DNA from: Eledone cirrhosa
Lineage: Eukaryota
Direction: 5' to 3'
Assembly (NCBI GenBank): GCA_964016885.1
Contig: OZ024741.1
Span: 380,432,001-380,496,000, forward strand
DNA length: 64,000 bases
The position numbers and the translations under genes are program-made. Numbering within the stretch: position 1 is the stretch's first letter; every line of letters begins with the position of its first letter. Below are positions 1-59,122 of the stretch, piece by piece. Below the pieces are notes generated by a model that saw only the letters and a program-made list of their open reading frames with translations, had not been told where the DNA came from and did no database searches.

Positions 1-731
1 AGCTTTCTTTTTGGTGCCTGTTTCATTACGGCCACACTTCTCACCAATGACATAATCATTTTCCCTAACACACTGCCTAACAATCCTGAACACTTCATAT
101 TTCTGGTCTTCATGCAGCAAAAAAATTATCATCTAGCTTCCCTACTGGCCTCTATATAGTGTACTCTGCTTCCCTCCGTTCTTCTATTTTTACATGCCTG
201 TCTCTTGGCCTTAATTTTCACATCTACCTTATTGTTCCACCACCAATTCCCTCTCCTTCTCTCTGTAGCCCTGCTCCATCCACAAATCTCATCTGTCAAC
301 TTCAGTAGATTATCTTTCAGGATCTCCATATGCTCTTCTATATTGAGTGTCTCTATCTGTTCTTTTTATAGCCGTAGGCTTCTGGCAAAATATCTCTAAA
401 TTTGTTACTGGTTGAAAGCTCTTTCAACATATTCTTCACCTAATGTTGCCCTCTTTTTCCAAGTTCCTCAAGTTCTGACAATGAAATCGATAACTACTAG
501 GTTATGTTTAGAGGTGCATTCCTCACCAGAGAAGGATTTTTTGTTTATCACCAGCACTCTATCTCATCCCCTGGTAAGGATAAAATTTATCTGCCTAGCA
601 CATTAACTAGATATGTAGATGATCAGGAGGTTGTCAAGTTTTAAGAAGTTTCATATATATCAATATACCATTAATGTCACAGAATTGTAGGAACCTGAAA
701 CCTTCTTCAATTCTTGTGCCAAACTCATAGA
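1..731 (-). mobile_element. RTE-clade LINE fragment (APE endonuclease end and linker), decayed
   Basis: Minus-strand translation LLKLTDEICGWS..WWWNNKV..IKAKRQA aligns by eye with the RTE LINE at about 40400-41220. Confidence 0.85.
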
Positions 732-929
732 CATTGGAAAAATATGTGAAGAGTTCTACAGAATCTATGAGTTTGGTACAAGAATTGAAGAACGTTTCAG
801 GCTCTTACAATTCTGTGACATTAATGATATATCGATATATATCAAACTTCATAAAATATAACAAACTTCATATATATTCTTTAACGATCGATTTCGTCAA
901 ATCGGACCGAGAAATCATTGTGTCCATTA

Positions 930-6809: not shown

Positions 6810-7350
6810 TATCGTCATTGTTACTGTTCGAGGTTAGAGGACCACAGTCTTTCCAAGATCTGAGAACCATCAATGGTCATCAATGTTCCCCTTACCATTT
6901 GGCTTGCCAGATGCATGGTATGTTACACGATGACAGCCATTGGCAGCTCACTCTGCAAGAAGCAGCAACTGCTAAAGTCCCTTCTCAGCTGAAAAAAAAT
7001 GTTGCTATTATGCTGCACAACTGCGATCTCACCGACCCTCTCGCAATGTGGAACAACCACCGCGAAAGTCTAGCTGAGGACATCCTCCACCGCACACGCA
7101 TACACAATCCAAATGTAACATACGATGTCGTTTTCAATGAGGTGCTCATTTGTCTTGAAAACAGCTTACCTACTCCTGACAGGAGTGTCCAGAGTTCAAC
7201 GTTTACAGAGCTTCGCGAAACGAGCTACGAGATCAGTGATTCTCCTATGATCAATCGTACGTAGGATGCTCTAGGGTGAGCTCGCCAAACAATCTCTTCA
7301 TCTTTGCTCCGGAGGGCCGAACAAAAATATTGTATACGTTGAGGCTCTAA
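6810..7350 (+). pseudogene. Helitron Rep/helicase remnant
   Basis: Rep-Hel linker motifs fused directly to the C-terminal YVGCSRV..TK.IVY segment, so most of the Pif1-type helicase is missing. Confidence 0.85.

Positions 7351-7613: not shown

Positions 7614-7698
<85 letters not shown>
7614..7698. repeat. (TA)n microsatellite
   Basis: Seen directly. Confidence 0.98.
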
Positions 7699-7704
<6 letters not shown>

Positions 7705-7835
7705 GTGAGGTTTTTTTTACAAAATGAAAAATAACCGAGGTGTCCTACACGAGTGGAAGTATAAAGAAAAAGGGATGAAATCGAAAATGCAACTGAAGTC
7801 TTATTTTTTTTTTAAATATATATATTTATTTGGTT

Positions 7836-7873
7836 CCTTTACCGGTTTCGCAGTTCTTCTGCTTTTCAAAAGG
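7836..7873 (-). ncRNA. Minimal type I HHR, UUGAAAA (U3-A8) core
   Basis: Reverse complement of 7956-7993. Confidence 0.8.
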
Positions 7874-7955
7874 TGAGTTGAGATGGAGGGTCTGTGGTTT
7901 TTCTCACATCGTACGTAGGATGTGAGAAAAACCACAGACCCTCCATCTCAACTCA

Positions 7956-7993
7956 CCTTTTGAAAAGCAGAAGAACTGCGAAACCGGTAAAGG
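7956..7993 (+). ncRNA. Minimal type I HHR, UUGAAAA (U3-A8) core
   Basis: CCTT-TTGAAAA-GCAG AAGAA CTGC-GAAAC CG GTA-AAGG; palindromic ACCGGT stem III, GUA site. Confidence 0.8.
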
Positions 7994-8062
7994 AACCAAA
8001 TAAATATATATATTTTTTAAAAAAATAAGACTTCAGTTGCATTTTCGATTTCATCCCTTTTT

Positions 8063-8152
<90 letters not shown>

Positions 8153-8547
8153 CCCACCCTTGCAAGCAGGGAAAAGTAGACGTGAAATGATGATGATGAT
8201 GATGATGATGATGACGATGATGATTATATATATATATATATATATGTTTATTTATATTTTCGAAAATGTTTCTATACCTCCTTGTTGTTGAGTAAAACTG
8301 ACAGGTTAGTTGGTGAGCTATTTCTAGAGCTTCTTGTAACTTGACGCCAGACCACCTGTTACTTTTCCTCATACTGGATAGTAAGTACATGATCTTTTTG
8401 CATAAAAAAAAAACACTTATATTGTGGTCATGTGAGGGGTTTGTCTTTTACTGCTGTTCTCATGATGTTAGACGTCTTACTAGTTAAGAATTTGGATGTT
8501 GGTCTTGCAGATTATCAATGCATAACTTTGTAAACTTAATTTATATA

Positions 8548-9414: not shown

Positions 9415-9513
9415 TATCCACTCTACTACCCTAAGTATTGAGTACTCTGCTGCGTTATGCTCCACTTGGTATTTTACCACACCCTCGTTGTTATATATAT
9501 ATATAGATAGATA

Positions 9514-9660
9514 GATGTGAGAAAAACCACAGACCCTCCATCTCAACTCACCTTTTGAAAAGCAGAAGAACTGCGAAACCGGTAAAGCAACCAAATAAAT
9601 ATATATATTTTTTTTTTAAATAAGACTCCAGTTGCATTTTCGATTTCATATCTTTTTCTT

Positions 9661-9664
<4 letters not shown>
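9514..9664 (+). mobile_element. Third, single-arm copy of the HHR-bearing unit of 7919-8069 (HHR 9551-9588)
   Basis: Near-identical to 7919-8069; (TA)n on both sides. Confidence 0.85.
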
Positions 9665-9696
<32 letters not shown>

Positions 9697-10550
9697 TTTA
9701 GTAAAATCGAAGCTTCAGCTGTAGCCAACCTGACGAGATACAATGAGGAAGTGTGCAGCCAAGCACTCAATGAGGAGTCTCAGAGTAATAACATTCATTC
9801 GACGGCATGACAAATTGAAAACTGTGGCCGACAAACCTAGCCACGACACCAAAGCAACGAGAAAACCAACAGATTAATAAAACAAACCTGGACCATCTCG
9901 GTGGTAGATCGTCGTTTCTCCGATAGGTTCCTATGAATTCCAAATCAACAATGCTACTTGCGTAAGTATGTAAGTTTTTGGTGTTTGAAGACCGAACTGG
10001 GGATTCATATTATCGACAGGTTTCTGTTATGTGCCTTGACCCGGTGTGGTAGGAAGTAGTAAGCCACTGTTGTTAGCAGTGGCTCATGCCTCAACTATCA
10101 CGTTCTTCTTCCCAAGGGAAATAACCCTGGGTTTTTTTTGGTGGGCAAATTCAAAATGTGGACAAGGGAATTGTGTTCCCTGCACAAACTGAATAAGAAG
10201 CACTTAACCAGTCATTAACTTTGCCTTTCATCCTTACGGGGTCGATAAAATAAAGTACCAGTAATGCACTGGGTAATTACTGGCCTTGTGCCAAAAGTAG
10301 AAACAATTATTATACACACATAAATAATTAATCAATCAATGGAATTGTCTAATTAAATTGATTATACATATATATATATAAAATGACTCAGAAAAACGAG
10401 TGCAGGGGTGGTTAGAGTTGGGGGAGTCTATGATGGAAATGACACATCCAATCTATGCATGTGTGGAAAAGAGAAGTTAAAAATGATAATGATGATGTTG
10501 ATGATGATATATATAAAAGTCCCACTGCATTGGACAATTATTTAATTTAA

Positions 10551-10737
10551 CTGTTTCTACTTTAGGCACAAGGCCAGCAATTATCCAGTGCATTACTGGT
10601 ACTTTATTTTATCGACCCCGTAAGGATGAAAGGCAAAGTCAACCTCGGCGGGATTTGAACTCAGATCGTAAAGGGACGTAACTATGCTGGAAAGCATGGC
10701 GTCCGACCCTCTACTGATACTGCCAATCCACCGCCCT
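10551..10737 (-). mobile_element. Full-length tRNA-like SINE (most abundant family in window) with TSD
   Basis: B box GAGTTCAAATCC, conserved GCCTTTCATCCTTACGGGGTCGATAAAATAAAGTACCAG body, TSD CAATTATTTAATTTAA at 10535 and 10738. Confidence 0.9.
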
Positions 10738-11658
10738 CAATTATTTAATTTAACAACACTGAATAATATATGATAAAGTTGACCACCTTGGGATATGATC
10801 TCAGAGCAGAGAGACTGCTGGACATTTTATTCAATGTTCTAATGGTTCTGTCAATTCATTACCTTATCTAACCAATGGTATACTCAAACAATCCAAACAG
10901 AAAATTCCATGTAAAATGGATGATTTATGTAAAGTGTATCAGTGGAATAAGAATGTCATAGTTCTCTTTCAAACTCTATAGGAATTGAGTCTAAGTAGCG
11001 TCAATTATAGAAGTCAAGGAGAAAGCAATAATTCTATTTTAACGAGAACTTTACCGATTTCGGAAAATATAACTGCATAAAAATACATCACATTATACAA
11101 TCTAAAAACTCATAACCAAAAGTAAATTGAATAAGCAATGATTCTTAAATTGCACAGTAAGCTTTCTTATATTTCTCTATCTATATTTATCTGTTTTTTC
11201 TTCTTAGTATTACTGGCAAAATTCATTAATAACTCTAAAAGTGATAGTACATTTCTTCTGCCTAATGATGGTGACAGTCTGAGATATTGTATTCAGGTTC
11301 ATATATACTGTTCCTTCATTTATCCTAATTGCATGACAATTACAGAAAATGCAACTTATTCTGTAACGATCTGCATAAGCAGAGATTAAACACCATCATT
11401 TTTCAGCTGAAAAATTCAATCATAGAAGCATTAGGTTATCAATACATTTTGAAAATTATGCATTTAATGGAAGCACATTAAAACAATACCTCAAGAAATG
11501 ATACATGACCTGGTAATGGAAGTAATGTTTATGTGCATAGAAGTACAGGAATAGTGTTGCATGCAAACGGTGGGTAGAGTGTTGATAATGAAAGTGGTGT
11601 TGTTAATGGTGGTGGTAGTGGTGGTGACACTGATGGTCGTGGTGGAGTATTATTATTA

Positions 11659-11860
11659 TTGGCAGTATTGGTAGAGGGTCGGACGCCATGCTTTCCAGCA
11701 TAGTTACGTCCCTTTATGATCTGAGTTCAAATCTCGCCGAGGTTGACTTTGCCTTTCATCCTTACGGGGTCCATAAAATAAAGTACCAGTAATGCACTGG
11801 GTAATTGCTGGCCTTGTGCCTAAAGTAGAAACAATTATTATTATTATTATTATTATTATT
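11659..11860 (+). mobile_element. Same SINE family, (ATT)n tail
   Basis: Matches 10551-10737; partial copies also near 10216, 28198, 51500, 58668, 60720 and 61035. Confidence 0.9.
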
Positions 11861-58964: not shown

Positions 58965-59122
58965 CCCAGTCCCTATCATCTCATTTCTACAGCTGAGTAA
59001 ACTGGAGCAATGTGAAATAAAGTGTCTTGCTCAAGGAAACAACACATCACCCGGTCTGAGAATTGAACTCACAACCTTTCGATTGCAAGACCAATGCTCT
59101 AACCACTAAGCCATGTGCCTCC
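58965..59122 (-). mobile_element. tRNA-derived SINE, same family
   Basis: TGGCTTAGTGG A box and TTCCTTGAGCAAGACACTT on the minus strand. Confidence 0.75.

What the first reader, a model, noticed from the sequence alone, without database searches (positions are those of the whole stretch)
7760..8069. 310 bp palindrome made of two outward-facing minimal U3-A8 hammerheads, with a solo copy 1.5 kb away
No coding sequence is present. Each arm of about 150 bp holds a 38 nt HHR with UUGAAAA core and ACCGGT stem III (too short to fold as a monomer, so dimer type), then AATAAA. The solo copy at 9514 begins at the same GATGTGAG position as the arms, which suggests a defined unit boundary rather than random truncation. 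Inference: a tiny non-autonomous ribozyme retroelement (retrozyme-like) mobilised by PLEs.
Basis: partly seen in the sequence, partly recalled or inferred. Interest (0 to 1): 0.75.

Follow-up and report, generated by a model that had tools for sequence, protein, structure and literature searches.

The report
Back-to-back Penelope retrotransposon start stubs
This mirror-image DNA is two short back-to-back copies of the front end of a very abundant Penelope-type jumping gene, joined by a patch copied from nearby DNA, so it was likely built on the spot by copying the start of the element's RNA onto both ends of one DNA cut, and it is not a separate ribozyme parasite.

Summary
The palindrome and its minimal U3-A8 hammerheads are real, but the element is 7698-8069: a long arm (213 nt, with a 62-nt tail) and a short arm (151 nt), both ending in (TA)n. 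Both arms are the terminal repeat (pLTR) of a two-ORF Neptune-type Penelope-like element found intact elsewhere in the genome. The hammerhead core occurs 11,848 times. In a position-ordered sample, 53 of 123 arms start within 7 nt of a site 30 nt after the parent's TATA box (likely the transcription start). Head-to-head pairs are long+short in 32 of 32 classifiable cases. The 8-nt centre is copied from this locus's own flank (7254-7268), so the palindrome was joined in place. Best model: the two cut target strands prime two cDNAs at the two internal start sites, both run off the RNA's 5' end, and end-joining seals them. The retrozyme tests failed (no same-direction repeats, no cut-to-cut unit, no promoter), and ribozyme-cut ends are at most 1-2%. 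The architecture is published, and this scan has noted the class often on other DNA. Added here: the locally templated junction, and ORF-bearing copies almost never stop at that start (1 of 88).

The parts
7698..7910 (-). Long arm: PLE pLTR from the shared 5' boundary (+1 = G of GATGTGAG) to the distal end point (+213)
   Evidence: Identical to the parent's pLTRs except one base each; 214-nt match
7698..7759 (-). 62-nt 'tail' present on one arm only (between the two inferred reverse-transcription start sites)
   Evidence: in the parent it runs on into the ORF1 leader; tail concept from PMC11167929
7836..7873 (-). Minimal U3-A8 type I hammerhead of the long arm (activity untested)
   Evidence: Sequence; folds
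7911..7918 (.). 8-nt junction filler, not from the element; with 3-nt and 4-nt flanking microhomologies it copies 7254-7268
7919..8069 (+). Short arm: pLTR +1 to +151, ending at the proximal end point (TTTATA)
7956..7993 (+). Minimal U3-A8 type I hammerhead of the short arm; predicted cut after 7989 (activity untested)
7614..7697 (.). (TA)n tract at the long-arm end (target microsatellite)
   Evidence: 110 of 123 sampled arms end in a TA repeat
8070..8148 (.). (TA)n tract at the short-arm end
7254..7268 (+). Donor of the junction filler: 15-nt exact match to 7908-7922
   Evidence: 2 matches in the window, 0 of 100 shuffles reach 2
9513..9664 (+). Solo short-type pLTR stub, independent insertion between TA repeats; different subfamily variants; stem I weakened by G-to-C at 9588

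Best explanation
The palindrome is two head-to-head copies of the 5' leader (pLTR) of an autonomous Neptune-type Penelope-like retrotransposon, joined through a patch copied from the local flank, and it likely arose at this site when both strands of one cut in a (TA)n tract primed reverse transcription on the element's RNA. Shown: identity with the parent's pLTR; two fixed 3' end points (+151, +213), both ending in TATA; one long plus one short arm per pair; a 5'-end peak 30 nt after TATAAAA; a filler matching the local flank. Inferred: (1) the parent mRNA starts at the A of CCAGATG; (2) the RT/GIY-YIG protein, probably as a dimer, nicks (TA)n on both strands; (3) one strand primes at +213 and the other at +151, sites that also lie near the RNA's 5' end, so both cDNAs are short and run off that end; (4) host end-joining or an RT jump seals the two cDNA ends, here borrowing 8 nt from 430 nt outside the element. 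The stubs lack the TATA box and are likely dead ends. The hammerhead is a passenger that RT reads through. Whether both arms come from one RNA or from two RNAs of one subfamily is open; I lean to one RNA or one source locus (about 60%).
For: Parent found: L056 has pLTR+tail, ORF1, ORF2 (RVT_1 E 5e-7, GIY-YIG E 3e-6), 3' UTR, pLTR+tail. Of 37 head-to-head pairs in the position-ordered sample, 32 are long+short, 4 are long plus an arm ending before the short site, 1 is unclassifiable (one arm cut by the locus edge), and 0 are long+long or short+short (2e-10 if independent). The same holds for 22 of 22 close pairs among the 30 best hits and 7 clear kb-scale pairs among 20 loci. 5' ends: 53 of 123 at -1..+5 (7.6 per nt) against about 0.07 per nt upstream; TATAAAA begins at -30. 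Filler donor; also L010 (19 nt) and L097 (17 nt), 3 of 15 gapped junctions. Arms share subfamily variants (34 of 35, 32 of 35, 30 of 32, 30 of 32; younger-type haplotype 21 of 25 against 7.8 shuffled). Published biochemistry shows a PLE protein nicking and extending both strands from two internal RNA sites that define the tail, with a predicted dimer (PMC11167929).
Against: No RNA evidence for the start site was obtained. My cap-derived extra-G prediction failed: GGATG occurs in only 84 of 6,245 copies. Only 1 of 88 loci in which the tail runs into ORF1 begins at the inferred start, which a single linear mRNA model does not predict. The T/A run at about +95 to +107 differs between the two arms in 11 of 12 otherwise exact pairs (window T3A10 against T6A7), which fits two separate RNAs or a copying hot spot. 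Shared subfamily variants could reflect one subfamily active at a time. Penelope of D. virilis has a TATA-less internal promoter (PMC2377424, abstract only), so a TATA promoter is not general for PLEs.
Confidence: 0.75

Rival explanations
1. Independent non-autonomous retrozyme-like element: the 150-nt unit or the palindrome is transcribed, self-cleaves as a dimer, circularises and spreads as its own family.
For: Thousands of short copies with a shared 5' boundary and an intact hammerhead motif; animal retrozymes are proposed to derive from PLE pLTRs (bioRxiv 10.64898/2026.07.22.740005, part 1 of 5).
Against: The hammerheads are on opposite strands, not in same-direction tandem. Unit ends (+1, +151, +213) are not the cut site (+72). 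94.8% of copies keep the three bases before the cut (12,762 of 13,461; 95.7% expected from point changes). No TATA box in the stubs. 24 of 28 adjacent junctions are unique. The filler comes from the local flank.
Confidence: 0.05
2. Fold-back (self-priming): one cDNA or an antisense RNA snaps back and is copied, giving the mirror arm (the reading in PMC3846280 for head-to-head palindromes).
For: Near-perfect symmetry; arms share variants; 4 of 28 junctions have a one-base centre.
Against: A snap-back copy must be nested in the first arm, but the tail-less arm reaches further 5' than the tailed arm in 7 of 27 adjacent pairs (by 73, 28 and 11 nt in three; 4-6 nt in four) and by more than 1 kb in L049 and L050. 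A filler copied from the genomic flank implies two free ends.
Confidence: 0.1
3. Same dual priming, but the template is not the coding mRNA: stubs are copied in trans from short transcripts started at the TATA box of the many 5'-truncated copies' 3' pLTRs. This would be non-autonomous mobilisation without a separate element.
For: 2,472 copies keep the upstream pLTR sequence against 90 tail-to-ORF1 junctions. ORF-bearing copies show no stop at the start site.
Against: A few short inserts contain the ORF1 start looped back into the pLTR (L207, L218, L241, L233), and one junction holds 77+ nt of ORF2 (L017), so coding RNA is a template at least sometimes.
Confidence: 0.3
4. A DNA transposon derivative (MITE) or an assembly artefact.
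For: Long inverted repeats inserted at TA.
Against: Asymmetric ends, variable length from about 200 bp to several kb, RT/GIY-YIG parent. Contigs of a public run show the same end points with (TA)n loose ends and opposite-strand joints at the 5' boundary (that run may be the assembly's own sample).
Confidence: 0.02

Closest known systems
EN+ Penelope-like element insertions with an inverted 5'-truncated pLTR and a one-sided tail (Adineta Pen2a, PMC3846280; overview in PMC8557442)
   Same: Head-to-head inverted pLTR, tail on one end only, partial tandems, microsatellite targets.
   Different: Here the whole insert can be just the two pLTR stubs. The tail is 62 nt, not 30-40. A target-site duplication cannot be read inside (TA)n.
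Poseidon element of Anolis (PAc; PMC11167929)
   Same: Two internal start sites define the tail; both strands are extended; the hammerhead is not needed for insertion.
   Different: In PAc the start sites lie in the ORF and have no homology to the target. Here both lie in the 5' leader and end in TATA that matches the (TA)n target.
Minimal PLE hammerheads, U3-A8 variant (Cervera and de la Pena 2014, PMC4209133)
   Same: U3-A8 core, short stem I, palindromic stem III. That paper also mentions pairs 100-700 bp apart on opposite strands in Schistosoma.
   Different: Stem II is 4 bp with no extra base before it. Cleavage was not tested here.
Metazoan non-LTR retrozymes (PMC7229834; bioRxiv 10.64898/2026.07.22.740005)
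   Same: Short, non-coding, type I hammerhead, related to PLE pLTRs.
   Different: Retrozymes are same-direction tandem units released by two cuts as circles. This is an inverted pair whose ends are not cut sites.
L1 twin priming (recalled, no call)
   Same: Both target strands prime cDNA and the products are joined by microhomology.
   Different: In L1 the two parts do not overlap; here both arms copy the same 151 nt.

Membership tests
EN+ Penelope-like element, Neptune type (parent) | RT followed by a C-terminal GIY-YIG endonuclease | tested here: met
   RVT_1 and GIY-YIG Pfam hits above cut-off in L056 ORF2; DKG motif in the translation
EN+ Penelope-like element, Neptune type (parent) | CX2-5CxxC linker before the endonuclease and CCHH residues in it | tested here: met
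   CGRSNCGTC, CKGC and two His read by eye; definition from PMC8557442. Shared with Nematis and Naiad.
EN+ Penelope-like element, Neptune type (parent) | Phylogenetic placement of the RT in the Neptune group | not tested
   No reference PLE RT set was held; the label rests on domain order, linker, hammerhead and target
EN+ Penelope-like element insertion | pLTR with hammerhead, inverted 5' copy, tail on one end | tested here: met
EN+ Penelope-like element insertion | Microsatellite target preference | tested here: met
   110 of 123 arms end in a TA repeat
EN+ Penelope-like element insertion | Target-site duplication | tested here: inconclusive
   Both ends lie in (TA)n; no empty site was found for the window flanks among held loci
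Non-LTR retrozyme | Two or more same-direction tandem units each with a hammerhead | tested here: not met
   Arms are on opposite strands; the solo copy is 1.6 kb away and independent
Non-LTR retrozyme | Unit delimited by ribozyme cuts | tested here: not met
   Ends at +1, +151, +213; cut at +72; 94.8% of copies read through the cut
Non-LTR retrozyme | Expressed as linear and circular RNA | not testable with these tools
   No raw RNA reads were available
Minimal U3-A8 hammerhead | Core UUGANAA/GAAA/UH with stems I and II and a palindromic stem III | tested here: met
   (motif and fold only)
Minimal U3-A8 hammerhead | Self-cleavage as a dimer | not testable with these tools
   Needs an assay. 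2 of the first 100 copies start exactly at the predicted cut, a weak hint.
MITE | Uniform element with symmetric terminal inverted repeats | tested here: not met
   Ends asymmetric; lengths and centres vary

The most novel reading that the evidence does not exclude
The genome's thousands of stubs record two different templates in the Penelope cycle. RNA started at an upstream TATA promoter yields only dead-end palindromes, primed at two sites by a dimeric enzyme and sealed by repair that copies patches from 400-700 nt away. Coding copies come from a template with no stop at that start (read-through, circular, or an LTR-like strand jump), which is how the element regains a promoter lying outside its own transcript.
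Probability: 0.35. Interest if true: 0.6.

Novelty: new member of a known kind. Interest (0 to 1): 0.35.

Why it matters
How PLEs make their inverted ends and one-sided tails is stated as open in PMC8557442 and only partly answered in vitro (PMC11167929). This family gives sharp predictions: the RNA start, two priming sites, strict long/short pairing, and junctions patched from local DNA, which argue for two free cDNA ends over fold-back. It also warns that hammerhead palindromes are easily mis-filed as retrozymes or MITEs. The architecture itself is known and common, so the locus is not surprising.

Tried and rejected
Cap-derived extra G: suggested by the top BLAST hits, but that was selection by my query. 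Only 84 of 6,245 copies read GGATG, and the parent reads CCAGATG in 2,465 of 2,472. Rejected. Ribozyme cut as a major 5' end: rejected. Solo copy as a local duplication: rejected. Rfam: no hammerhead hit, only hairpin-type microRNA models below threshold. RNA: no RNA holder listed; the three runs laid were contigs of unrecorded kind. Empty target site: none found for the window flanks among held sequences. Compensatory change in stem I between subfamilies: not seen. Structure after the ORF1/ORF2 slippery site: no better than shuffles. NCBIfam added nothing above cut-off. The first pairing rule (4 kb) mis-paired three loci and was replaced by nearest-partner pairing within 1 kb. Literature: 'penelope' + 'twin priming' + 'inverted' gave 2 papers, neither about PLE mechanism by title and abstract start; subscription papers and supplements were not seen, so dual priming of PLEs may be in print.

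Full report
Observation. The inverted repeat is real: arms 7760-7914 and 7915-8069, 155 nt, 97% complementary. Each arm holds a 38-nt minimal hammerhead with a UUGAAAA (U3-A8) core and a palindromic ACCGGU stem III. Stems I and II form in the predicted fold and stem III does not; two copies pair through ACCGGU in a co-fold. The fold energy is unremarkable (z -0.76), and Rfam did not report it. The element is larger than stated: the left arm continues for 62 nt to 7698, so the insert is (TA)n, a long arm of 213 nt, an 8-nt filler, a short arm of 151 nt, and (TA)n. I number positions from the G of GATGTGAG as +1.

Parent. Among the 30 best genomic hits, L005 had a GIY-YIG coding end upstream of the unit. 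That piece gave 1,626 first-look candidates, and one of 20 loci fetched, L056, is complete: inverted truncated copy ending at the short site, partial tandem, pLTR with tail, ORF1 (400 aa, no Pfam family), ORF2 (RVT_1, CGRSNCGTC linker, GIY-YIG), 3' UTR, pLTR with tail, (TA)n. The window's long arm differs from each parent pLTR by one base. The unit is therefore the pLTR and 5' leader of an autonomous PLE. 'Neptune type' rests on domain order, linker and target as described in PMC8557442 (passages), not on a tree.

Copy number and sampling. A 26-nt hammerhead word occurs 11,848 times (control 0), while the tail-to-ORF1 junction occurs 90 times. For a sample not chosen by score I took the first 100 listed hits (C1, 0-36 Mb), which with their partner arms gave 123 arms. 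Arms starting after about +49 are under-sampled by this selection, so the cut site was tested separately.

3' ends. 68 arms end at the long site, 45 at the short site and 10 elsewhere; 110 of 123 run into a TA repeat. Both sites end in TATA. Of 37 head-to-head pairs, 32 are long+short, 4 are long plus an arm that stops before the short site, 1 is unclassifiable, and none is long+long or short+short. The 22 close pairs among the best hits and 7 clear kb-scale pairs follow the same rule. This matches the tail of PLEs, which PMC11167929 (parts 1-2 of 4) traces to two internal RT start sites, with both target strands nicked and extended.

5' ends. 53 of 123 arms start at -1..+5 (7.6 per nt against about 0.07 per nt upstream). 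In the parent, TATAAAA begins 30 nt before the A of CCAGATG, the textbook spacing of a Pol II promoter (established knowledge). I infer that the shared boundary is the transcription start and that stubs lack the promoter. A cap-derived G was predicted and not found (84 of 6,245). The ribozyme cut is not a major boundary: 12,762 of 13,461 copies (94.8%) keep the three bases before it, against 95.7% expected from a 1.45% mismatch rate. Of 7 exceptions I found among the first 100 hits, 5 are point changes and 2 start at the cut, a weak hint of rare cleavage.

Junction. The 15 nt at 7908-7922 are an exact copy of 7254-7268 (0 of 100 shuffles), and the 8-nt filler is absent from the parent. The donor supplies ATC and GATG microhomologies to the two arm ends. 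Among 15 junctions with a gap of 5 nt or more, 3 match non-repetitive local flank for 15-19 nt (window, L010, L097; donors about 430-660 nt outside the element), 4 re-copy the element's own 5' end, 1 begins with ORF2 sequence, 2 are TA-rich matches that I did not count, and 5 have no clear source (only the window case was shuffle-tested). Of 28 adjacent junctions, 4 share a one-base centre and 24 are unique. A patch taken from this locus's own flank means the palindrome was joined here and was not inherited as a unit.

Fold-back or dual priming. PMC3846280 (passages and Discussion) reads such palindromes as self-priming. A fold-back copy must be nested in the tailed arm, yet the short arm reaches further 5' in 7 of 27 adjacent pairs (clearly in 3) and by more than 1 kb in L049 and L050. 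Arms share subfamily variants far above shuffles, pointing to one RNA or one active source. Against a simple one-RNA copy, the T/A run differs between arms in 11 of 12 otherwise exact pairs; this is unexplained.

A result the simple model does not predict. Of 88 loci holding the 90 tail-to-ORF1 junctions, 1 starts at -1..+5, 55 extend upstream and 32 start downstream (one of the 32 abuts unreadable sequence). Among copies that reach the start region, 1 of 56 stops there, against 53 of 97 in the general sample. Coding copies thus come from a template that does not end at the start, or RT jumps across it. This restores the TATA box in partial tandems.

Comparison. Inverted pLTR, one-sided tail and microsatellite targeting are published (PMC8557442, PMC3846280). 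U3-A8 minimal hammerheads and opposite-strand pairs are in PMC4209133 (parts 1-2 of 4). An ORF1 separated by a frameshift is in the Fig. 1 legend of PMC8557442, and a two-ORF Neptune is in PMC12602865 (passages). Retrozymes are defined by same-direction tandem units and circular RNA (PMC7229834, passages; bioRxiv 10.64898/2026.07.22.740005, part 1 of 5); the first is not met and the second was not testable. PMC13282606 (passages) had nothing on this structure; PMC2377424 was seen as abstract only. No supplements were read. Earlier notes of this scan describe the same class in at least 45 genomes and in this one; I had reached the reading before looking, and they are not independent support. 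Two of them report ribozyme-cut ends as common in their families, which I did not find here.

Verdict. A real feature and a new member of a known kind: an in-place insertion product of an abundant PLE, not a retrozyme. Interest 0.35.

Noticed in passing
L056:5654-5744 (also L050, L051, L058, L059, L063, L064): ORF1 and ORF2 overlap with a U-UUU-UUA heptamer in the ORF1 frame, conserved in 7 of 7 copies found: a likely -1 ribosomal frameshift. No strong downstream structure. A frameshifted ORF1 is noted for PLEs in PMC8557442.
   Followed up: partly
window 7804-7816 and 8013-8025 (unit about +95 to +107): A T/A run of nearly constant length (13) whose T/A boundary differs between the two arms of one insert (T3A10 against T6A7; 11 of 12 pairs differ). 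Four ORF-bearing copies also start at +101 in this run. Possible RT slip site; unexplained.
   Followed up: partly
L207 (G000:C3:292518800-292521200): A long/short insertion whose short side is a 165-nt tandem (about +101 to +266, tail plus ORF1 start, no hammerhead) in three copies; L218, L241, L233 and L192 show single loop-backs of the same kind. Looks like repeated template jumps or a small RNA circle.
   Followed up: partly
window 10548-11837: Inverted pair of a common 180-nt repeat (96%), 930 nt apart; the same repeat has many other copies in the window.
   Followed up: no
window 682-813: A long hairpin that scores against microRNA precursor models below their thresholds; probably another inverted repeat.
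   Followed up: no
window 8149-8215: The right flank is the 3' end of a frequent repeat with a (GAT)n tail, with more than ten relatives in the window.
   Followed up: partly
window 59056-59113 (-): Partial tRNA-like match just above the Rfam gathering score; may be a SINE head.
   Followed up: no
L031:8736-8866: A diverged (79%) head-to-head stub related to the same unit, suggesting older subfamilies with the same architecture.
   Followed up: no
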